Positions 13,069 to 23,667 are shown, counted from the first letter of the stretch. The stretch is 23,667 bases of DNA from Candidatus Sysuimicrobiota bacterium (GCA_040289515.1 PSLI01000034.1:1-23667); one strand, 5' to 3'. Numbers and translations are program-made. Notes: a model not told the origin generated them from the letters alone.

Positions 13069-16044
13069 CTAGCCCTTCACCACGCCCACGGGCCGCATCT
13101 TGGCCACCTTGCGGGAGATCCCCGCCCCGTGGCACACCTCCACCACGTCCGCCACGTCCTTGTAAGCCTCCGAGGCCTCCTCCGCCAGCAGGGACCGGTT
13201 CTGGGCCCGCACGAGGATCCCCCGCTTTTCCAGCTCCGCGGCGATGTCCACGCCCCGCAGCTCGCGCACCGCCGCCTTGCGGCTGCGCACCCGCCCCGCC
13301 CCGTGGCAGGTGCTGCCGAAGGTCTCCTCCATGGCTCGCTCGGTGCCCACCGCCACGAAGGAGTACCGACCCATGTCCCCGGGGATGAGGACCGGCTGGC
13401 CGATCTCCCGGTAGCGGCTCGGGATCTCGGGGTGGCCGGGCGGGAAGGCCCGGGTAGCGCCCTTCCGGTGCACCACCAAGCGCACGGGACGGCCGTTTAC
13501 CGGGTAGGTTTCCAGCTTCGCGATGTTGTGGGCCACGTCGTACACCACCTGGAGCCCGATCTCCCGCAGCGGCCGGTCCAAGACCTTCGTGAAGGACTCC
13601 CGCACCCAGTGGGTAATCATCTGCCGGTTGGCCCAGGCAAAGTTGGCCGCGCAGCACATGGCCCGGAAGTACTCCTGACCCTCCGGCGAGGAGAAGGGCG
13701 CGCAGGCCAGCTGCCGGTCTGGGAGGGTGATCCCGTACTTCTTCAGGGCGCGGTCCGTCACCCGCAGGTAGTCCTCGCACACCTGGTAGCCCAGTCCCCG
13801 CGACCCGGTGTGGATGAACACCACCACCTGGCCGACGAACAGCCCCATCACCTCCGCGGCCCGCCGGTCGTAGACCTCCTCCACCACTTGGATCTCCAGG
13901 AAGTGGTTGCCGGAGCCCAGGGTGCCGATCTGGTCCTTGCCGCGCTCCTTCGCCCGTGGGCTCACCGCGTCGGGATCCGCGTCCGGCAGCTGGCCTGCCG
14001 CCTCGATGCTGTCCAGATCCCCGGGGGAGCCGAACCCGCGCTCCACGGCCCACCGCGCCCCGCCCCGCAGCACGTCGTCCACCTCCCGCAAGGACACCCG
14101 CACCTTGCCCGTGCTGCCCACCCCGGAGGGCACGTTGCGGAACAGCTCCTCCACCAGCTCCCGCAGCCTGGGCCGCACCTCCTCCTCCGTGAGGTCGGTG
14201 CGGAGGAGCCGGACGCCGCAGTTGGAGACCACGAACCCGTTCGCGATGAAGTTGTGGTCCGGGTGCGCCACGGTGACGTCGTAGACATCCTCCGTGAAAT
14301 CGACCAGCTCCTCCAGAGAGAGGATGCGCGCCCAGACCATCCCGCTCTCGCCCAGGCCCGCGGTCGCCTCCCGCCGGTAGGTGTCGAAATCGGGGAAGTC
14401 CACGCCGATCCGGACGGACTCCTTCCCGCCCCCGTACACGGAACGTTCCACGAAGTGCCCGTTCGCTCCCTGGACCGACGGTTCTTCCTGGATCCGTGCC
14501 AGAGGGCTGCCCGCCGCGTAAAGGGCCACGGCCGCCGCCTGTTCCCGTGCCCGGGTGGCGCGCTGCCTCTGTTTGAGATACTGGACGGCCACCAGCCCCT
14601 GCACGTGGCGGCGGCGGTTGTACTCGAACCCGATGCGTCCCCACAGAGCAACCAGACTCTCGGGCCTGGAGGAGAGAAGGAGGCGGAACCGAACGGAGCG
14701 CGTGCCGTCCGTGCGCGGCTCGACCCGCCGGGTGATACCGCACACCTCCACACCGAAACGGGCCAGCAGGGAAGCCACGTCCTGCAGGAACAACTCGCCG
14801 CTGTCCGCCACCGGCTCCCGTTTGCTCAAGGAGAGGAGAGACACGTGGGAATCCTTGCCGTGGCCGTCGATGGGGCCCGGCGTGGAGCGCCCGGCGCCGA
14901 AGAAGGCCGCCAGGAACAGGCGCTGTTGCCAGCGTGGGGCCTCCCACAGCCAGGAGGGGAGTCGGAAGTCCTGCGAAGCTTTCGCGCCCACCGGGACACC
15001 CAGGGCCACCAGGAGCGCCGCCAGCGCGCTGCTGGACACCTTCACGGCATGCTCCGTGCGCTCGAACCGGTACGCGCCGTACGGGGTTCGAAGAGCGTGG
15101 CGAGGCCGGCGCGGGTAAACCCTCGACGGGCTGAACCCCAAGGCGGCGATGTCGGCGCGAATCGCCTCCAGGTCCTCCGGAGGGCCGTAGAACCAGACCG
15201 TGCCCCTGCCGGTGCCTCCGGTGAAGTACAGGGTGCCGTCTCCGAACAGATATCCCAGCAGCTTCAGCAGATAGGGCAGCGCCGGAGAGTCCAGGCGCAG
15301 GGGAAGCAGCCCCCGCCGGGTCAGCTGCGCGCGAATCTGCGTCCCCACTTCCTTCCTCCCTTTGCCCAGCGCCTCCAGAACACGCTGCAGACGCGCTTCG
15401 TCCACGAGGACGCGCGCTTCCGGCTCTTCATACTCGACACCCTCGAAGGGGTACACGGCAACCCGGTCGCCGGGCCGAAGCTCTCTCAAAGGCCGCATCC
15501 CGTCCGGCGTCCAGAAGGGGTGGTCCGCCGTGGCCACGATCTGCTCCCCGGTCTCCGTGGTCAAGCGGTAGACGGCAACGTGGGGCTTGCGCCGCAGGTA
15601 CAGGACGAGGTAGGTCGCCGCCTCCCGCTCCCTGGCAAAGTCCTGGCAGCGCAGGCGGGCTCGCTCCCAGCCTCGCTCCATGCGGGCGATGGGGACCGTG
15701 TAACCGAACTCGTGGAGGACCCGGCTGTCGCCCGCGATGCAGTTGATATCGTAGCCGACCCCCCCGGGGGAGATGACCCCGTCGTCCGCCCGCAGCGCCG
15801 CCACCCCGCCCACGGGGAACCCGTACCCCCAGTGGATGTCCGGCATGGCCAGGGAGTACCGCACGATCCCGGGCAGGGTGGCCACGTTGGCCACCTGCTC
15901 CAGCGCCTGGTCCTGGCCGATCTGCCGCAGCATGGCCTCGTCCGCGTACACAAATCCGGGCACCCGCATGCCGGGTTTGTAGTCCTGCGGGATCTCCCAC
16001 CGGTACTCGTCCACCTTGCGCAGCACCCGCGTCCACTGCGTCAT
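13069..16044 (-). CDS. rtcB: RtcB RNA ligase precursor with intein (991 aa; 484 aa after splicing)
   Basis: [88 protein letters not shown] 16044 with GGAGG RBS. Confidence 0.97.
14221..15741 (-). mobile_element. Intein (507 aa) with LAGLIDADG-type homing endonuclease domain inserted in rtcB
   Basis: Block A CIAGDSRV, block B ATADHPF, LAGLIDADG-like LLGYLFGDG and FLAAFFGAG, block F VYDVTV, block [12 protein letters not shown] followed by extein Cys. Removal restores GYDINCGVR. Confidence 0.96.
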
Positions 16045-16114
16045 GGCCGCACCTCCAAGCAAAGAGCCCCCCACGTTCCGTGAGGGGCCCCGCGCACTCC
16101 TCCCCGGGCACCCG

Positions 16115-16369
16115 CTAGAAGGGCACGGCTTCCACCGCCTGGATCTCCGGGACCTCCTCGCGGATCATCCGCTCCACCCCGGCCTGCAGGGTCATCATGG
16201 AGTACATGCAGCCCACGCAGGCACCCGCTAGGCGGATCTGCACCACCCCGTCGCTGACGTCCACCAGCTCGATGTCCCCGCCATCGGCCTGGATGTAAGG
16301 CCGGATGGCCTCCAGCACCCGCTCCACGCGGGCCCGCACGTCCTGCTCGTGGGAGATGGTCTCGCTCAT
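16115..16369 (-). CDS. NifU C-terminal domain / Nfu-type Fe-S carrier (84 aa)
   Basis: IRPYIQADGGDIELV...LAGACVGC...TLQAGVE. Confidence 0.93.
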   Translation of the reverse strand: MSETISHEQDVRARVERVLEAIRPYIQADGGDIELVDVSDGVVQIRLAGACVGCMYSMMTLQAGVERMIREEVPEIQAVEAVPF

Positions 16370-16381
16370 TCCAGCCTCCCG

Positions 16382-16750
16382 CTACGCCTGCGGCGCGTCC
16401 TCACAGGGCTGCGCCTCGCCCGGGTCGTCCACGGTCTTGAAGGAGTGCCCGCAGCCGCACGTGGCCACAGCCCGCGGGTTGTGCACCGCAAACCCCTCCC
16501 CGAAGGGGGTCTGCCGGTAGTCGATACGCGCCCCGTCCATGACCCGCCAGGTGAGGGCATCCACCACGAGCCGGATCCCGTGCTGCTCGCTGACTTGATC
16601 ATCGGGCTGGATCCGATCGTCAAAGCCCATGCCGTACGTGAAGCCCTCGCACCCGCCCTTGGTGACGAACAGGCGCAGGTACACCTCCCCCGGCTGGTCC
16701 GCCATGAGCTCCCGGATCTTCCGTGCTGCCGTCTCCGTAAGGGTGATCAT
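16382..16750 (-). CDS. A-type Fe-S cluster carrier (HesB/IscA/SufA/ErpA family, 122 aa)
   Basis: MITLTETAARKI, GGCEGFTY, NPRAVATCGCGHSF. ATG 16750 after GGAGG RBS. Confidence 0.94.
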   Translation of the reverse strand: MITLTETAARKIRELMADQPGEVYLRLFVTKGGCEGFTYGMGFDDRIQPDDQVSEQHGIRLVVDALTWRVMDGARIDYRQTPFGEGFAVHNPRAVATCGCGHSFKTVDDPGEAQPCEDAPQA

Positions 16751-16796
16751 ACCGCCTCCCCGTCCCTGCGGCACTCCCGCGGGCAGCCCTAAAAGA

Positions 16797-16825
16797 ATTC
16801 TAGGAGCCGGCCCCAGCCCTGTCAA
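16797..16825 (-). promoter_or_regulatory. Sigma70-type promoter for the leftward Fe-S carrier/rtcB operon
   Basis: TTGACA (16825-16820), 17-nt spacer, TAGAAT (16802-16797). Confidence 0.85.
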
Positions 16826-18465: not shown

Positions 18466-19650
18466 CTAGCTGCGGCGGGCCGGCTCCCCTTCCCGCTCCG
18501 GGAGGCCTGTCCGCACCGGTTTGCCCGCGTTCTGCCAGGCCAGGATCCCCCCCACGAGGTTGAATACCTGGTCGTAGCCGCGCTCCCGCAGCCACTGGGT
18601 GACCTTCCCGCTGCGGTTTCCCGACGCGCAGTACACCACCACGGGGCGATCCCTGGGGATCTCGTGGTACCGGGCCTCCACCTCACCCATGGGAATCCAC
18701 CGCACGCCCTCGATGTGAGCCTGCGCCACCTCCCACGCCTCTCGGACGTCCACCAGCACCGCGCCCTGCCGCACCAAGGCGTCCACCTCCGCCACGGACA
18801 CCTCCGCAGGCTTGGCGGGGACCTCCGACACCCGGTCGTGCTCCGGAACGCCGCAGAAGGCCTCGTAGTCGATGAGCTCGTGGATGGCGGGGTGGTCACC
18901 GCACACGGGGCAGTCGGGGTTTCGGGACCATCGGACGAACCGGATCTCCCCGGTGAGGGCGTCGAACAGCATGAGCCGGTTGGCCAGGGTCTGCCCCACG
19001 CCCAGCAGGATCTTGATGGCCTCCAGGGCCTGGTGGGTGCCCATGAAGCCCGCCACCGCACCCACGATCCCTGCCTCCGCGCAGGAGGGAACGGCCCCGG
19101 GCGGAGGGGGGCTGGGGAACAGGCACCGGTAGCAGCCGCGGCCCGGCAGAAAGGTAGTAGCCTGGCCCTCCCACCGCAGGATGGCGGCGTCCACCAGGGG
19201 TTTACCGAGCAGCACGCAGGCGTCGTTGACCAGGTAGCGGGTGGGGAAGTTGTCGCAGCCGTTTACCACCACGTCGTACTGCGACAGGATCTCCAGGGCG
19301 TTGGCGGACGTCAGAACCGTCTGGTGCGGCACCACCTGCACATCGGGGTTGACGTCCTCCAGGGTCCGCCGGGCAGACTGGGTCTTCGGGCGCCCGATGT
19401 CGTGGTGGAAGTGCAGAATCTGCCGGTGCAGGTTGGTGAGATCCACCCGGTCCCCGTCCACGATGCCGATGGTCCCCACCCCGGCTGCGGCCAGGTACAG
19501 GGCCGCGGGCGAGCCCAGCCCGCCGGCACCCACCACCAGCACGCGGCTAGCCAGCAGCTTCCGCTGCCCCGCCACCCCCACCTCCTCCAGGATGATCTGC
19601 CTGGAGTACCGCTGCAGCTGTTCCTCCGTCAGAGTCTGACCCGTCGCCAT
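18466..19650 (-). CDS. moeB: MoeB/ThiF adenylyltransferase fused to C-terminal rhodanese (MoeZ/MoeBR type, 394 aa)
   Basis: RYSRQI, VGAGGLGSP, NLHRQ, DNFPTRYLVND, CYRC and CPVC Zn pairs, PSCAEAG, rhodanese DVRE and YCASGNRS. Confidence 0.94.
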   Translation of the reverse strand: MATGQTLTEEQLQRYSRQIILEEVGVAGQRKLLASRVLVVGAGGLGSPAALYLAAAGVGTIGIVDGDRVDLTNLHRQILHFHHDIGRPKTQSARRTLEDVNPDVQVVPHQTVLTSANALEILSQYDVVVNGCDNFPTRYLVNDACVLLGKPLVDAAILRWEGQATTFLPGRGCYRCLFPSPPPPGAVPSCAEAGIVGAVAGFMGTHQALEAIKILLGVGQTLANRLMLFDALTGEIRFVRWSRNPDCPVCGDHPAIHELIDYEAFCGVPEHDRVSEVPAKPAEVSVAEVDALVRQGAVLVDVREAWEVAQAHIEGVRWIPMGEVEARYHEIPRDRPVVVYCASGNRSGKVTQWLRERGYDQVFNLVGGILAWQNAGKPVRTGLPEREGEPARRS

Positions 19651-19781
19651 ACATCTCTCCCGAACGTCTGAGTGGAATTCTGAAACAGTGCAGAGCGGGG
19701 GCTTCCCCGGCTCGGGGTCTACCCCCGCCGGGGACAGATGCACTCGCGGGGCTTCCGCAGGCGACCCATGGATCCGCTAGG

Positions 19782-19810: not shown

Positions 19811-19861
19811 ACCCCACGCGGGTTGCTGACTTGTGTCAACCCGCCCGCTCCGGAGCCCCTC

Positions 19862-19870
19862 TGGTACAAT
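19862..19870 (+). promoter_or_regulatory. Extended -10 promoter (TG-G-TACAAT) for the ferredoxin-NADP reductase gene
   Basis: TGGTACAAT 27 nt upstream of ATG 19898; no clear -35. Confidence 0.65.
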
Positions 19871-19897
19871 CCCCGCAGAACGCGAAGAGGAGGCGCC

Positions 19898-20911
19898 ATG
19901 GACCTGTACGACCTCACCATCGTGGGGGCGGGCCCCACCGGGCTGTTCGCGGCGTACTACGCGGGATTCCGGACCCTGCGGACCAAAATCATCGACAGCC
20001 AGTCCGACCTCGGCGGGCAGGTCACGGCCCTGTACCCGGACAAGTACATCTACGACGTGGCCGGGTTCCCCAAGATCCTCGGCAAGGACCTGATCCGCAA
20101 CCAGGTGGAGCAGGCCATGCAGTACAACCCCACCGTGGTGCTCAACGAGCGGGTGGAGGTGCTGAAACGGCTGCCCGACGGGAACTACCGCCTGGTCACC
20201 CACACCGGCCAGGAGCACTTCACCCGGGTGGTCCTGATCGCGGCGGGCATCGGTGCCTTCACCCCCAAGAAGTACAACCGGCCGGAGCTGGACCGGTACG
20301 AGGGGCGGGGCCTGTACTTTGCGGTCCGCAACCGGGAGGACTTCCGCGACCGGCGGGTGCTGGTGGTGGGCGGGGGTGACAGCGCTTTGGACTGGGCCCT
20401 GAACCTGCTCCCCATCACGCGCGAGCTCACCCTGATCCACCGGCGGGACCAGTTCCGCGCCCACGAGGACTCCGTCCGAAAGCTCATGAGCTCCTCGGCC
20501 ACGGTGAAGCTGTTCTACGAGCTGAAGGCCCTGGAGGGCAACGAGCGGGTGGAGCGGGCGGTCCTCTTCAACAACCGTACCCGGGAGGAGGAGGTCCTGG
20601 AGGTGGACGCGGTGCTGGCCTTCCTAGGACTGGTCAGCAACCTGGGGCCCATTCGGGAGTGGGGGCTGCACATCGAGGACAACGCCATCGTGGTGAACAC
20701 GAAGATGGAGACCAACCTCCCGGGGGTGTACGCGGCGGGGGACATCGCCACCTACCCGGGTAAGCTGAAGCTCATCGCCACGGGTTACGGGGAGGCTGCC
20801 ACCGCGGTCAACAACGCCTACACCTACCTCAACCCGGGTGCCAAGGCGTTCCCCGGGCACTCCAGCGCCATCATGGAGAAGCGGGAACGGGCAGCCGCGA
20901 AAACCGGCTGA
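19898..20911 (+). CDS. TrxB-type ferredoxin--NADP(+) reductase (YumC-like, 337 aa)
   Basis: IVGAGPTG, LGGQVTALYPDKYIYDVAGFP, GGGDSALDWA, HRRDQFRAHE, GDIATYPGKLKLIATG, C-terminal FPGHSS. No thioredoxin-reductase CxxC. GAGGAGG RBS. Confidence 0.92.
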   Translation: MDLYDLTIVGAGPTGLFAAYYAGFRTLRTKIIDSQSDLGGQVTALYPDKYIYDVAGFPKILGKDLIRNQVEQAMQYNPTVVLNERVEVLKRLPDGNYRLVTHTGQEHFTRVVLIAAGIGAFTPKKYNRPELDRYEGRGLYFAVRNREDFRDRRVLVVGGGDSALDWALNLLPITRELTLIHRRDQFRAHEDSVRKLMSSSATVKLFYELKALEGNERVERAVLFNNRTREEEVLEVDAVLAFLGLVSNLGPIREWGLHIEDNAIVVNTKMETNLPGVYAAGDIATYPGKLKLIATGYGEAATAVNNAYTYLNPGAKAFPGHSSAIMEKRERAAAKTG

Positions 20912-20918
20912 AGCCCAC

Positions 20919-21587
20919 CTAGCCGCGGCCGCGGCGCACCGCGCCCACGGGCTCCATCCGCAGGGTGCGCTTGGCCACCCAGGCCAGCCAGCCCCCCACG
21001 GTCCACCGGGCGGGCTTGTGGGCCAGATTGCGGAAACCCACGGACAGCGCCTCTGCCACCGCCTGCTGCACCGCCTCTGCCGTCAGGGGCCGGCCCAACC
21101 GCAACAGCTCCCGTTCCACCGCCCGCCGCAGGCCCGCCAGGCCCTCCTCCGCCAAGCCGTCGAAGGCTTCCCGGTCCCCCACCAGGGCCCGGTCCAGCAG
21201 CTCCCGCTCTTCCCGCAGGGCGCGCTCGTACGCCTCCACGGCCTCCCGCGGCAACGAGGCCCGGCGGCGTTCGTGGGCATGCTCCCGCCGCAGGCGAGCC
21301 TTGTAGCGGGACAGCTGCTCCTCCAGATCGTCGAACGCCGCGCGCAGCCACCCCTCCGGCGTTGCCGACCGGTTGCGCCGGGCTGACAGCACCCGCCCGG
21401 GCAGGTACACCCGGGCGCTACCGGTGTACTCCTCCTTGCGAGCCGCCCGCTCCACCTTCACGTGCAGCTGCACCAGGTCGGGCCGGAAGTGCCGGAGACG
21501 CCGCTGCAGCCGCGCCACAGAGCGGTCCAGGACCTCGCGCGCGTGGCCTCCCAGTTCGAACCGTTGCGTGGTCAGGTGGACCTCCAT
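20919..21587 (-). CDS. HPF/RaiA ribosome-associated domain fused to ECF sigma factor region-2-like domain (222 aa)
   Basis: aa 1-102 follow the HPF pattern (MEVHLTTQRFEL...LYLPG-like VYLPGRVLSA...AFDDLEEQLSRYKARLR). aa 126-211 ERELLDRALVGDREAFDGL...WLAWVAKRTLR resemble ECF sigma2. AGGAGG RBS before ATG 21587. Confidence 0.8.
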   Translation of the reverse strand: MEVHLTTQRFELGGHAREVLDRSVARLQRRLRHFRPDLVQLHVKVERAARKEEYTGSARVYLPGRVLSARRNRSATPEGWLRAAFDDLEEQLSRYKARLRREHAHERRRASLPREAVEAYERALREERELLDRALVGDREAFDGLAEEGLAGLRRAVERELLRLGRPLTAEAVQQAVAEALSVGFRNLAHKPARWTVGGWLAWVAKRTLRMEPVGAVRRGRG

Positions 21588-22045
21588 ACCGCCTCCTGTC
21601 CTTCGGGGAACTGCCAGGGGGGCTCCGGGGCGCACGTGCCGCACTCGGGCTCCTGCACGCCCACCCATCGCACGGTGGCCTCCAGCTGCTCCCAATCCGG
21701 CAAGGTTGGGTGGCGCAGCACCCACGCGGCTGCAGCCTGACCCCGCCGGTCGAAGGCCAGCACCACCGCGTCCGCATCCGGGTCCCACTCCGCGCGGGTG
21801 CGGCCTGTGGGATCGTACAGCTGACGGGCCAGCTCCACCAAGGGCTCCGGCTCCTCCCGGACCCCAACAAGGCCCACACCCCACATCGCCCAAGCCAGCT
21901 CCTGCCGCGCTGCCTGCTGCGCCAGGGCCCTGCACGAAGAGCAGCTCGGGCCGTGCAAGACCAGCGCCACGTGCGCCCGCAGCCGCCAGCCGGGTATCCA
22001 CCGGACAGCTCCTCCCTCCTCCCCCCAAAGCCCAGGCCGCCTCAC
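21572..22045 (-). CDS. Small thioredoxin/peroxiredoxin-like fold protein with two CxxC motifs (about 157 aa)
   Basis: VALVLHGPSCSSCRAL, LVGV, LYDPTG, VLAFDRRG pattern of redoxin folds, plus C-terminal QEPECGTC. GTG start overlaps the lipA stop (GTGA); 3' end overlaps the HPF gene start by 16 nt. Confidence 0.7.
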   Translation of the reverse strand: MRRPGLWGEEGGAVRWIPGWRLRAHVALVLHGPSCSSCRALAQQAARQELAWAMWGVGLVGVREEPEPLVELARQLYDPTGRTRAEWDPDADAVVLAFDRRGQAAAAWVLRHPTLPDWEQLEATVRWVGVQEPECGTCAPEPPWQFPEGQEAVWRST

Positions 22046-22917
22046 CGCACCACCGCTCGCTGCACCTGCTCGTCCGCGTGGTAGCTGCTGCGCACCAGGG
22101 GCCCGGACTCCACATGCCGGAACCCCATGTCCAGGGCCACCCGCTTGATCTCCGCGAACTCGTCCGGGTGCCAGTACCGGTGCACGGGTTCGTAGCCCGG
22201 ACCAGGGCTCAGGTACTGCCCCACGGTCACAATGTCGCAGCCCACCGACCGCAGGTCGTGCAGGGTCTGCACCACCTCCGGGAAGGTTTCGCCCAGGCCC
22301 ACCATGAGCCCGCTCTTGGTGAGGCAGGGGTAGCCCCACCGTTTGACCCGCGCCAGCAGCTCCAGGGAGCGGTCGTAGCTGCCGCCGCTGCGCACCCGCT
22401 TGAACACGGACCGCACCGTCTCGATGTTGTGGTTGAGGATATCCGGCCCCGCGTCCAGGACCGCGCGCAGGGCCTCCGGGTCCCCCTTGAAGTCGGGGAT
22501 GAGGACCTCCACGCTGCAGTCGGGCTTCCGCCGGCGGATGCAGCGGATGGTTTCCGCGAACACGCCCGCCCCGCCATCCCGGAGGTCGTCGCGGTCCACG
22601 GAGGTCACCACCACGTGGCGCAGCCCCAGGGCGGCCACCGCGCTGGCCACCCGCTCCGGTTCCCTCCAGTCCACCTCCGTGGGCAAGCCGTGGGCGATGG
22701 CGCAGTACGAGCAGTTACGGGTGCACACGTTGCCCAAAATGAGGAAGGTGGCCGTGCGCCGTTCCCAGCAGTCGCCGATGTTGGGGCAGCGGGCCTCCTC
22801 ACACACCGTGTGCAGTCGCTGGGTCCGCAAAATAGCCACCAGCTCCCGGTAGTTGGGGCCGGAGGGGACGCGGGCCTTGAGCCACGGCGGGCGCTGCGGG
22901 ATCACGGGAGCGGTCAT
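22042..22917 (-). CDS. lipA: Lipoyl synthase (291 aa)
   Basis: TVCEEARCPNIGDC (CX4CX5C), radical SAM CTRNCSYC, TSVDRDDL, NHNIETV, GQYL, PLVRSSYHA. Confidence 0.97.
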   Translation of the reverse strand: MTAPVIPQRPPWLKARVPSGPNYRELVAILRTQRLHTVCEEARCPNIGDCWERRTATFLILGNVCTRNCSYCAIAHGLPTEVDWREPERVASAVAALGLRHVVVTSVDRDDLRDGGAGVFAETIRCIRRRKPDCSVEVLIPDFKGDPEALRAVLDAGPDILNHNIETVRSVFKRVRSGGSYDRSLELLARVKRWGYPCLTKSGLMVGLGETFPEVVQTLHDLRSVGCDIVTVGQYLSPGPGYEPVHRYWHPDEFAEIKRVALDMGFRHVESGPLVRSSYHADEQVQRAVVR

Positions 22918-22936
22918 GGGTGCGGCCTCCTCCGGT

Positions 22937-23667
22937 TCACCGGGTCACGGGGTCCACGGCCTCCAGGCTCGCCTTCACGTGGTTCAAAAACTGCACCGCC
23001 ACCGCGCCGTCGAACACCCGGTGGTCGAAGGACAGGCCCAGGTGGAGGATGGACCGGATGGCGATGGCGTCGTCCCGCACCACGGGCCGCTTCGCGATGG
23101 CGTCCGTGGCCAGGATGGCCGCCTGCGGGTAGTTAATGATGGGCAGGGACCACACGGACCCAAACACACCTGGATTCGTCAGGGTAAAGGTCCCGCCCTG
23201 CACGTCCTCCAGCGTCAGCTTCCCTTCCCGGGCGCGCCGGGTGATGTCCTCCAGCTCGCGGGCCAGGCCCACCAGGCTCTTCTCCTCCGCGCGGTGAATC
23301 ACGGGGACCACCAGTCCGTCCTCCACGGACACCGCGATGCCCAGGTTCACGTGGGGTTTCAGGACGATGGCGTCCTCCGCCCACTGGGCGTTCACCACGG
23401 GGAAGGCCCGCAGGGCCTCCACCGCGGCCCGGGCGAACAGGGCGGTGTACGTGAGCCGGACTCCGTGCTGGCGCTGGAAGGACTCCCGGTGCGCCTCGAA
23501 CCAGTGCACCAGCTCCGTGACATCCGCCTCCACCACCCCGTAGGCGTGCGGCACCTCCCGCTTGGCCCGGCTCAGCCGCTCCGCGATCGCGCGGCGGACA
23601 GGTGACAACGGGATCCGCCGCTCCTCTGCAGCGGGCAGGGGCTGCGGCGGGGGTGCCTCGGCCGCCG
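22937..23667 (-). CDS. Dihydrolipoamide acyltransferase (E2 of a 2-oxoacid dehydrogenase), C-terminal catalytic domain; 5' end outside window
   Basis: Pro/Ala linker then RRAIAERL, NLGIAVS, GLVVPVI, GGTFTLTNPG, PIINYPQAAIL, catalytic FDHRVFDG. Frame open to the window edge. Confidence 0.95.
   Translation of the reverse strand, partial: AAEAPPPQPLPAAEERRIPLSPVRRAIAERLSRAKREVPHAYGVVEADVTELVHWFEAHRESFQRQHGVRLTYTALFARAAVEALRAFPVVNAQWAEDAIVLKPHVNLGIAVSVEDGLVVPVIHRAEEKSLVGLARELEDITRRAREGKLTLEDVQGGTFTLTNPGVFGSVWSLPIINYPQAAILATDAIAKRPVVRDDAIAIRSILHLGLSFDHRVFDGAVAVQFLNHVKASLEAVDPVTR

What the first reader, a model, noticed from the sequence alone, without database searches (positions are those of the whole stretch)
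20919..21587. Ribosome hibernation factor (HPF/RaiA) fused to a stand-alone ECF sigma region-2-like domain
Seen: aa 1-102 carry the HPF beta-alpha-beta-beta-beta-alpha pattern with its basic terminal helix (LEEQLSRYKARLRRE). After a short linker, aa 126-211 read ELLDRALVGDREAFDGL...LRRAV...EAVQQAVAEAL...FRNL...WLAWVAKRTLR, matching ECF sigma2 hallmarks (L..RA..GD..AF..L and W L..IA.N). No region-4 HTH follows. Known: long HPFs normally carry a dimerisation C-terminal domain; sigma2 binds the RNA polymerase beta' clamp helices and melts the -10 element; Bacillus subtilis YvrI/YvrHa is a two-subunit sigma with regions 4 and 2 on separate chains. Inference: this protein could link idle ribosomes and RNA polymerase, act as half of a split sigma, or be a sigma decoy whose availability depends on ribosome occupancy. 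The region 2.2 DAEDxxQE motif is degenerate (EAVQQAVAE), so core binding may be altered or lost. I know of no characterised protein with this architecture, but cannot check databases.
Basis: partly seen in the sequence, partly recalled or inferred. Interest (0 to 1): 0.82.

Follow-up and report, generated by a model that had tools for sequence, protein, structure and literature searches.

The report
Hibernation factor with half-sigma tail
This gene really does join a ribosome-silencing (HPF) domain to half of a stress sigma factor; it is a shortened branch of a fusion class already noted in a 2025 preprint but untested, and its sigma half has lost the parts needed to start transcription, so it most likely serves as a tail of an extra ribosome-protection protein.

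Summary
Real 222-aa minus-strand gene. N-half is an HPF/RaiA domain (Pfam above cut-off; fold Z 13). C-half is a sigma-2 fold (Z 9.6; profile chain to AlgU), and no sigma-4 follows. It is a conserved sigma-4-less branch (host family, Chloroflexota) of a wide HPF-sigma2-sigma4 family. That family includes the pEc78 protein, which sits at the orf11 position of the heat-resistance island and fits the 'SigE-HPF' chimera of bioRxiv 2025.11.04.686544; no functional test was found. The sigma-2 has lost its acidic core-binding motif and its melting residues (sigmaE F64 to K, N80 to R, R76 to W, the last a change that impairs unwinding in sigmaE) but keeps a conserved Trp/Arg patch. No cognate orphan sigma-4 was found in the genome, so a split sigma is unlikely. 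The HPF half has two of four invariant rRNA-binding basics charge-reversed. Best reading (0.45): accessory hibernation factor whose sigma-2 fold is a repurposed RNA-binding anchor, as in HPFcold and RafH. A ribosome-polymerase link stays open (0.2). This scan found the class before on other DNA, including a sigma-2-only planctomycete form. New variant of a known kind; interest 0.45.

The parts
20919..21587 (-). HPF-sigma2 gene, 222 aa (P0001)
   Evidence: synonymous codon changes equal or exceed non-synonymous ones in both domains against 6 of 6 close relatives compared, e.g. 32:12 and 29:12
21276..21587 (-). HPF/RaiA domain, aa 1-104
   Evidence: Pfam PF02482; fold Z 13.4 to RaiA 8rd8; groups with the HPF-sigma clade, not with the host's own long HPF (SH-aLRT 91, quick tree)
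21318..21329 (-). D87 and E90: charge reversal at E. coli HPF K80 and R83
   Evidence: alignment to 4v8h chain AX; D in 28 of 32 and E/D in 26 of 32 subfamily rows
21213..21275 (-). conserved helical arm, aa 105-125 (R107, R109, E121, L124)
20955..21212 (-). sigma-2-fold domain, aa 126-211, with the LLDRAL.GD..AF first helix
21063..21074 (-). A172-V-Q-Q175: the DAED core-binding position, without acidic residues
   Evidence: role of DAED from PMC8103513 and PMC8999054 passages
20967..21017 (-). K191-P-A-R-W195...W200..W203...R207: conserved aromatic/basic patch on the face that binds the -10 strand in sigmaE
   Evidence: sigmaE F64, W73, R76, N80 from PMC6648896 passages
21592..21597 (-). AGGAGG ribosome-binding site
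21572..22036 (-). upstream ORF (about 150 aa, start uncertain, no Pfam hit) whose end overlaps the HPF start by 16 bases; probably co-translated
   Evidence: a matching ORF precedes the gene in L015, L017, L033, L034 and L097, L107
22042..22917 (-). lipA (lipoyl synthase), same operon direction
19823..20911 (+). convergent pyridine nucleotide-disulphide oxidoreductase; leaves no room for a downstream sigma-4 gene

Best explanation
An accessory, stress-type ribosome hibernation factor of the HPF-SigE chimera class, in a branch that has shed sigma-4. SHOWN: one protein with an HPF fold and a sigma-2 fold; it coexists with a separate long HPF; the sigma residues for core binding and promoter melting are replaced. 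INFERRED: the HPF domain docks in the 30S mRNA/tRNA cleft of idle 70S ribosomes, more weakly than canonical HPF because of D87 and E90. Its long helical arm leaves towards the mRNA exit. The sigma-2 fold, an ancestral single-strand binder, no longer acts in transcription and uses its Trp/Arg patch to clamp the 16S anti-Shine-Dalgarno end or the platform, making up the lost affinity and protecting a 70S monomer. This would parallel the cold-shock domain of HPFcold and the linker of RafH.
For: Within the subfamily alignment, conservation is highest in the first helix (0.77), the region 2.3 loop (0.68) and region 2.4 (0.66), and lowest in core-binding regions 2.1 and 2.2 (0.50, 0.53). Three aromatics at 195/200/203 occur in 17 of 32 short rows against 0 of 32 long rows and 0 of 11 ECFs; the mean net charge of that stretch is +3 against +0.16 in long rows and +1.9 in ECFs. 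The HPF domain keeps the helix-1 basics R26 and R29, plus R94, K96 and R98, and adds R59 (30 of 32) at a position that contacts 16S in HPF structures. S. aureus K84A/R87A still binds ribosomes; only the quadruple mutant does not (PMC4889938). The best PDB sequence hit of the family profile is the ribosome-bound HPFcold (E 3e-5), which also has D at the K80 position and caps the anti-SD with its appended domain (PMC13392368). The RafH linker binds the anti-SD, partly through Trp stacking (PMC10799931). Outside the host family, 3 of 8 genome loci carry a baeRF10 (aeRF1-type, Balon-like by inference) gene within about 3 kb; metagenome loci add L106 (baeRF10) and L104 (RtcB, BON, DnaJ, PsiE). The preprint reports the same pattern: chimeras coexist with canonical HPF and often sit by Balon.
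Against: Nothing here shows ribosome binding. K80 and R83 are two of only four identical HPF/YfiA rRNA-contact residues, and R83 is described as the single essential arginine at m4C1402 (bioRxiv 2025.10.07.680626). Here both are reversed in charge, which is worse than alanine, and HPFcold keeps R83. The protein misses the TIGR00741 cut-off (26.9 against 40.9 bits). At this locus and across the host family the gene sits behind 2-oxoacid dehydrogenase and lipA genes, with no hibernation or chaperone neighbour in the operon; 5 of the 8 outside loci show no baeRF10 in the DNA held. Anti-SD binding by a sigma-2 fold rests on analogy only. The RafH W111A mutant inhibited translation like wild type, so Trp stacking may matter little.
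Confidence: 0.45

Rival explanations
1. RNA polymerase decoy or tether: the sigma-2 still binds the beta' clamp helices and blocks or parks core polymerase, with availability set by whether the HPF half is held on idle ribosomes.
For: Intact sigma-2 fold with the canonical first helix (31 of 32 short rows, 9 of 11 ECFs, 0 of 32 long rows). E179 (AlgU E53 position) is acidic in 21 of 32 rows and E171 in 70% of 50 rows. W203 equals the sigmaE R76W change, which impairs unwinding and would suit an inhibitor.
Against: The last D of DAED is acidic in 3 of 32 rows and the invariant Q is mostly A (17 of 32), against 11 of 11 for both in ECFs. ECFs lacking the acidic motif are inactive until phosphorylated. 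There is no sigma-4 or linker for the second and third core contacts.
Confidence: 0.2
2. The HPF half has also left its old job: the protein is a stress-island RNA- or protein-binding adaptor (for instance acting with the baeRF10 factor or on free 30S or mRNA) rather than a hibernation factor.
For: Charge reversal at K80 and R83 is subfamily-wide. The strongest conservation is in the arm and first helix (R107, R109, R128, D132), which have no known counterpart. Stand-alone sigma-2-only relatives exist (P0152, P0175; no genomic context), so the domain may work without HPF.
Against: The HPF half is under constraint similar to the C-half, stays strongly basic (net +11 for aa 1-110) and keeps the other contact residues.
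Confidence: 0.2
3. Sigma mimic (PhyR-like anti-anti-sigma): the sigma-2 titrates an inhibitor of, or pairs with, the HPF-less sigma2-sigma4 paralogue of the same family.
For: Such a paralogue was found in 3 of 4 Chloroflexota host genomes searched, with only its 3' part in the fourth, and lies near the fusion gene in L026 and L104. In L026 it precedes a zf-HC2-baeRF10 fusion (zf-HC2 E 0.005, below its cut-off). PhyR shows that degenerate sigma folds are used this way.
Against: No such paralogue in this genome, nor among 94 phylum genomes, where other matches reached only E 1e-20 and began at region 2.2, as ordinary ECFs do (at most 22 candidates scored per genome). PhyR carries both sigma-2 and sigma-4 (recalled).
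Confidence: 0.1
4. Half of a split sigma factor (SigO-RsoA / YvrI-YvrHa type) that works with a separate sigma-4 chain.
For: One relative locus (L025) holds an isolated sigma-4 frame two genes upstream (PF08281 E 5e-8).
Against: That frame has no clear start and matches the 3' half of the intact paralogue of L104, so it looks like a remnant. In this genome the only short sigma-4-like frame is a 131-codon frame on C16 (YlxM-like, label recalled). The melting residues are lost.
Confidence: 0.04

Closest known systems
HPF-SigE chimeric hibernation factors (bioRxiv 10.1101/2025.11.04.686544, abstract passage, sections 10 and 15 and one 10,000-character part read; named in PMC13392368, passages read)
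   Same: HPF N-domain without the dimerisation CTD, fused to an ECF-sigma module; coexists with a canonical HPF; relatives lie beside Balon-like genes. The short-family profile aligns with the long family over 218 columns (E 6.6e-39), and the long family with the 381-aa pEc78 protein WP_001723515.1 over 335 columns (E 6.8e-31).
   Different: Ends after sigma-2 (about 222 aa against 300-414). Keeps the ECF first helix that long forms lack. Has a Trp/Arg patch and mostly acidic residues at R83. The direct comparison of the short profile with the pEc78 protein alone is weak (probability 8). Figure 6 and the supplements of the preprint could not be seen and may show a short form.
tLST / locus of heat resistance Orf11
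   Same: The pEc78 long-family gene lies between hdeD-GI and trx-GI, the orf11 position; orf11 is described as of unknown function (PMC8290217 passages).
   Different: Orf11 has the sigma-4 part and sits on a mobile island; the short form had no match among 72,556 plasmids.
HPFcold (HPF-CSD, 9T0Z) and RafH (8WHX)
   Same: HPF domain plus an appended part that replaces the dimerisation CTD and protects the anti-SD on 70S monomers; HPFcold shares D at the K80 position.
   Different: The appendage is a cold-shock domain or a duplicated HPF CTD, not a sigma-2 fold; both are shown on ribosomes, this one is not.
ECF sigma factors (sigmaE, AlgU, BldN)
   Same: Sigma-2 fold, first helix, W73 equivalent.
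   Different: No sigma-4; DAED, Q, F64, R76 and N80 positions replaced.
SigO-RsoA (YvrI-YvrHa) split sigma; PhyR sigma mimic (PMC8103513 passages)
   Same: Isolated or degenerate sigma domains with real functions.
   Different: No cognate sigma-4 gene, receiver domain or anti-sigma found at this locus; HPF fusion.

Membership tests
HPF/RaiA superfamily (PF02482) | [quoted passage not shown] | tested here: met
   33.1 bits against 23.7; Z 13.4, rmsd 1.7, 99 aligned
HPF/RaiA superfamily (PF02482) | helix-1 basic patch (S. aureus K27/R30) | tested here: met
   R26 and R29; basic in 21 of 32 and 24 of 32 subfamily rows
HPF/RaiA superfamily (PF02482) | helix-2 invariant K80, R83, K87, K91 | tested here: not met
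   D87, E90, R94, R98: two of four reversed
HPF/YfiA equivalog TIGR00741 | score above curated cut-off | tested here: not met
   26.9 against 40.9 bits
HPF/RaiA superfamily (PF02482) | binds the 30S A/P site and inhibits translation | not testable with these tools
   needs experiment
long HPF (100S-forming) | PF16321 dimerisation CTD | tested here: not met
   no hit at E up to 1; the C-half folds as sigma-2
ECF sigma factor | sigma-2 domain | tested here: met
   the short-family profile alone pulls 10 sigma2-sigma4 ECF-type frames among the 21 loci inspected
ECF sigma factor | sigma-4 domain on the same chain | tested here: not met
   stop at aa 222; 23 of 25 relative loci stop at 221-230 codons, the other 2 run off contig ends (loci partly redundant)
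ECF sigma factor | acidic DAED motif and Q/E of region 2.2 | tested here: not met
   AVQQ-AV-A-E; D kept in 3 of 32 rows
ECF sigma factor | -10 pocket and wedge residues F64, W73, R76, N80 | tested here: not met
   K191, W200, W203, R207: one of four kept
HPF-SigE chimera class | HPF domain fused to a SigE-like module, homologous to the pEc78 protein | tested here: met
   through the long family; the direct comparison is weak
HPF-SigE chimera class | coexists with a canonical HPF at another locus | tested here: met
   C48:31591, E 4.5e-20; a second PF02482 gene in 3 of 5 Chloroflexota hosts, 2 of them with PF16321
HPF-SigE chimera class | often adjacent to Balon-like genes | tested here: inconclusive
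   not at this locus (this genome's baeRF10 is on C20); 3 of 8 outside loci; that baeRF10 equals Balon was not tested
split sigma (SigO-RsoA type) | separate cognate sigma-4 gene | tested here: not met
   (assembly 96.7% complete, 76 contigs)
PhyR-type sigma mimic | sigma-like domain plus receiver, with cognate anti-sigma and ECF in the locus | tested here: not met
   no receiver in the protein and no such Pfam hit among the 25 window frames scanned

The most novel reading that the evidence does not exclude
The protein is a coupler of the two dormant machines: its HPF half sits on idle ribosomes while a melting-dead sigma-2 (a natural sigmaE R76W/F64K/N80R form) grips the RNA polymerase clamp. 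It would either park polymerase on hibernating 70S or be released as a global transcription brake when ribosomes wake. In Chloroflexota the ancestral HPF-sigma gene would have been partitioned into HPF-sigma2 and sigma2-sigma4 copies that regulate one another.
Probability: 0.15. Interest if true: 0.85.

Novelty: new variant of a known kind. Interest (0 to 1): 0.45.

Why it matters
The HPF-SigE class is widespread and includes the unexplained orf11 of the mobile heat-resistance island of enterobacteria, yet no test of the sigma part was found. A conserved branch that dropped sigma-4 and rewired the core-binding and melting residues is a natural deletion experiment: it argues that the selected function of the fusion does not need promoter recognition. 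A small protein from a high-GC lineage whose named relatives include a thermophile is a good candidate for settling by cryo-EM whether a sigma fold was co-opted as a ribosome-binding cap (a sigma domain working in translation) or links hibernating ribosomes to RNA polymerase.

Tried and rejected
Complex prediction of the sigma-2 domain (aa 111-214, alignment A2) with the host beta' clamp fragment (103 aa, alignment A4) gave no answer: score 0.25 against a mark of 0.32, controls not folded; it is not used as evidence either way. No RNA holder was listed for the locus, so expression is unknown. Pfam Sigma70_r2 does not detect the C-half of P0001 and hits only 4 of 39 close relatives, best E 0.05; phmmer of the C-half against the PDB gave only a chance hit; the Atlas search of aa 105-222 gave sigma-2/ECF clusters at 0.87-0.88, a lead only. 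No sigma-70 promoter consensus was found in 20700-23667. The sigma-2 tree (82 rows, 90 columns, quick tree only; 2 mis-cut rows dropped and 2 long rows not cut) puts the short forms on one branch (SH-aLRT 89) but cannot order events; a donor or a direction of loss is therefore not claimed. 'Simple truncation of a long form' was rejected as a full account, because short forms keep the ECF first helix that 32 of 32 long forms lack. Frameshift or assembly artefact was rejected. The 18 proteins of 223-380 aa inspected look like long-family members, most of them fragments or frameshifts; P0124 (231 aa) may be a separate sigma-4-less form, without context. No model of the long family and no source names for the distant short members were obtained, so their taxa remain unknown. 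Paper searches: 'hibernation promoting factor + fusion + sigma factor + domain architecture' 0 papers; 'HPF + ribosome hibernation + sigma factor + fused'; 'S30AE + sigma'; 'HPF/SigE/hibernation/chimeric'; 'Balon/hibernation/baeRF'; 'pEc78'; 'locus of heat resistance/orf11/sigma'. None of the listings or passages seen described a sigma-2-only form or a functional test; subscription journals and the preprint's figures and supplements were not visible.

Full report
1. Observation. Window 21587..20919 (minus strand) is one 222-aa frame with an AGGAGG site before the ATG and coding-type GC in both halves. Pfam finds Ribosomal_S30AE at aa 4-100 above its cut-off and nothing on the C-half; TIGR00741 is hit below its cut-off. 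A word-index search returned 40 proteins among 7,999 candidates scored: 39, the query included, are 201-252 aa and cover 89-100% of the query, and one is 344 aa. Against 6 of 6 close relatives compared, synonymous codon changes outnumber non-synonymous ones in both domains. The gene is real and both halves are constrained.

2. Folds. The AlphaFold2 model from 39 sequences has pLDDT 87.7 and pTM 0.51, that is two confident domains of uncertain relative position. Aa 1-104 superpose on RaiA/HPF (Z 13.4, rmsd 1.7, 99 aligned). Aa 125-218 superpose on ECF sigma-2 domains: BldN Z 9.6 (rmsd 2.0, 77), AlgU Z 9.6 (rmsd 3.6, 88), sigmaE region 2 Z 9.1 (rmsd 3.9, 95); Foldseek gives 4lup a target TM-score of 0.72 at E 0.03. 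Such Z values are middling for helical bundles, so I sought sequence proof. A profile search over 1.84 billion representatives gave 911 hits, 150 listed. I scanned 82 of these: 53 of the 58 that are 299 aa or longer carry a sigma-4 Pfam hit at E up to 0.1, and 0 of the 11 full-length 216-227-aa ones do. The short-family alignment (62 rows) matches the long-family alignment (54 rows) over 218 columns spanning both domains (probability 99.96, E 6.6e-39). The long family matches AlgU from region 2.2 through region 4 (E 2.7e-19). Independently, the short profile, built without any ECF, retrieves 10 ordinary sigma2-sigma4 ECF-type frames through its C-half among the 21 weak loci inspected. The C-half is therefore a true sigma-2 homologue.

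3. No sigma-4, no partner. The stop is 7 bases from the stop of a convergent oxidoreductase gene. In 13 genome loci, 12 end at a stop after 221-229 codons and 1 runs off its contig; in 12 metagenome loci, 11 stop at 221-230 and 1 runs off; the two sets overlap in part. In the host genome (96.7% complete), PF08281 gave 11 matches, all in full sigma factors, other regulators or a YlxM-like frame (labels from inspection and recall). An unfiltered six-frame search with the short, long and HPF-less profiles found no cognate orphan sigma-4. A separate long HPF lies on C48.

4. Distribution and context. Full-length matches occur in 9 of 94 genomes of the host phylum: the host, 7 of 11 other genomes of its family and one of another family. 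In the host family the order 2-oxoacid dehydrogenase genes, lipA, small unknown ORF, HPF-sigma2, then a convergent oxidoreductase is conserved. Of the 8 genome loci outside the family, 3 hold a baeRF10 gene (L021 with Usp, L025, L026 with SDH protease and ClpB), and 5 do not in the DNA held. Metagenome loci L106 (baeRF10) and L104 (archease, RtcB, BON, DnaJ, PsiE) add to this. Balon genes most often lie beside RaiA and in stress operons (PMC10901736 passages); that baeRF10 is Balon-like is my inference. Chloroflexota hosts also encode an HPF-less sigma2-sigma4 protein of the same family: 3 of 4 genomes searched, a 3' remnant in the fourth, and again in L026 and L104. It was not found in the 94 host-phylum genomes (at most 22 candidates scored each). 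In a quick tree of the HPF domain (78 rows, fitted to the short profile), short and long forms group together apart from canonical long HPFs (SH-aLRT 91), so the gene is not a duplicate of the host's own hpf.

5. What the residues say. Anchored on W200 without gaps (32 short, 32 long, 11 ECF rows): the last D of the DAED motif is acidic in 3, 27 and 11 rows; the following Q is A in 17 short rows, D in 24 long rows and Q in 11 ECFs; sigmaE F64 is K/R in 31 short rows; R76 is W in 17 short rows; N80 is R/K in 25 short rows and N in 11 ECFs. DAED is needed for beta' clamp binding (PMC8103513 and PMC8999054 passages). In sigmaE, F64A, W73A and N80A slow promoter opening and R76W strongly reduces it (PMC6648896 passages). 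This domain cannot be a working sigma. Conservation is lowest in regions 2.1-2.2 (0.50-0.53) and highest in the first helix (0.77), the KP.RW loop (0.68) and region 2.4 (0.66): selection acts on the face that binds single strands in sigmaE and on the arm junction, not on the core-binding helix. In the HPF half, E. coli K80, R83, K87 and K91 map to D87, E90, R94 and R98; D is found in 28 of 32 and E/D in 26 of 32 short rows, whereas the canonical HPF controls keep basics. These four are the identical HPF/YfiA contacts, and R83 is singled out as essential at m4C1402 (bioRxiv 2025.10.07.680626 passages). This is the main result against a plain hibernation role. In mitigation, S. aureus K84A/R87A still binds ribosomes (PMC4889938 passages), ribosome-bound HPFcold has D at K80, helix-1 basics are kept, R59 is gained in 30 of 32 rows, and aa 1-110 carry net +11.

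6. Mechanism. Most likely (0.45) an accessory hibernation factor: a weakened HPF domain in the 30S cleft, a helical arm towards the mRNA exit, and a sigma-2 fold re-used as an aromatic/basic anchor on the anti-SD or platform, as the CSD of HPFcold and the linker of RafH do. Architecture, conservation and residue losses are shown; ribosome binding, geometry and target are inferred. Rivals: polymerase decoy or tether 0.2; adaptor that has left the canonical ribosome site 0.2; sigma mimic for the HPF-less paralogue 0.1; split sigma 0.04.

7. What is known. bioRxiv 10.1101/2025.11.04.686544 (abstract passage, sections 10 and 15 and one further part read; figures and supplements not seen) reports HPF fused to Csp, SigE or CBS, coexisting with canonical HPF, often beside Balon, and a SigE-HPF fusion on plasmid pEc78. 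PMC13392368 cites it as HPF-SigE. A long-family query matched 402 plasmid records, 49 over 80% of its length and some only as ordinary ECFs. One match is pEc78, where the 381-aa WP_001723515.1 lies between hdeD-GI and trx-GI, the position of orf11, described as of unknown function (PMC8290217 passages); it aligns with the long family over 335 columns (E 6.8e-31) but only weakly with the short profile directly. The short form had no plasmid match. The searches listed under Tried and rejected showed no sigma-2-only form and no functional test. This scan already holds 12 notes on the class, 8 shown, among them a sigma-2-only planctomycete gene; I reached the class, the preprint and the orf11 link before that look-up.

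8. Verdict. This is a new variant (sigma-4-less, melting-dead, with an altered HPF helix 2) of a computationally described, untested class. It works most likely like HPFcold or RafH; it is not a member of the ECF sigma, long HPF or split-sigma families by the features tested. Interest 0.45; the ribosome-polymerase coupler reading has probability about 0.15 and would deserve 0.85.

Noticed in passing
window 13069-16074 (-): RtcB RNA ligase interrupted by an intein (PF01139, PF14890).
   Followed up: no
window 21572-22036 (-): Unnamed ORF with CxxC and CGTC motifs between lipA and the HPF gene, overlapping its start by 16 bases; no Pfam hit; conserved in family loci.
   Followed up: partly
L026:1195-3266: HPF-less sigma2-sigma4 gene followed by a protein joining a weak zf-HC2 anti-sigma zinc finger to baeRF10: a possible anti-sigma/Balon-like fusion.
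   Followed up: partly
L118, L119, L120, L104:7705-8442, L025:2940-3323: HPF-less sigma2-sigma4 paralogue of the HPF-SigE family in Chloroflexota, directly upstream of baeRF10 in L119 and L025 (Pfam) and probably L118 (cut by contig end); L025 holds only its 3' part.
   Followed up: partly
L021:4700-4981, L103:4704-4985, L025:4464-4742, L108:838-1116: Small 92-93-aa protein without Pfam hit in the three copies scanned (shared W..GYRDPP...N motif) directly upstream of the HPF-sigma2 gene.
   Followed up: no
P0152, P0175 (no genomic context): 128- and 143-aa proteins with only the short-family sigma-2 domain, nested in the short clade.
   Followed up: partly
L076:1462-1857 (G038): Stand-alone HPF of the fusion subtype without any sigma part.
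   Followed up: partly
L156:6575-7720 (pEc78): The orf11-position protein belongs to the long HPF-sigma family, has no Pfam hit and lacks even the region 2.4 tryptophan.
   Followed up: yes
L155:6001-7128: Long-family gene on a Burkholderia plasmid between three Hsp20 genes and groES-groEL-dnaK.
   Followed up: no
window 16115-16825, 18466-19743, 1672-2757: NifU-like, IscA-like, ThiF-rhodanese and Mrp/NUBPL genes: an Fe-S and sulfur-transfer set near lipA.
   Followed up: no
L117 (G000:C20): The genome's single baeRF10 gene lies between an alcohol dehydrogenase and a radical SAM gene, away from the HPF fusion.
   Followed up: partly
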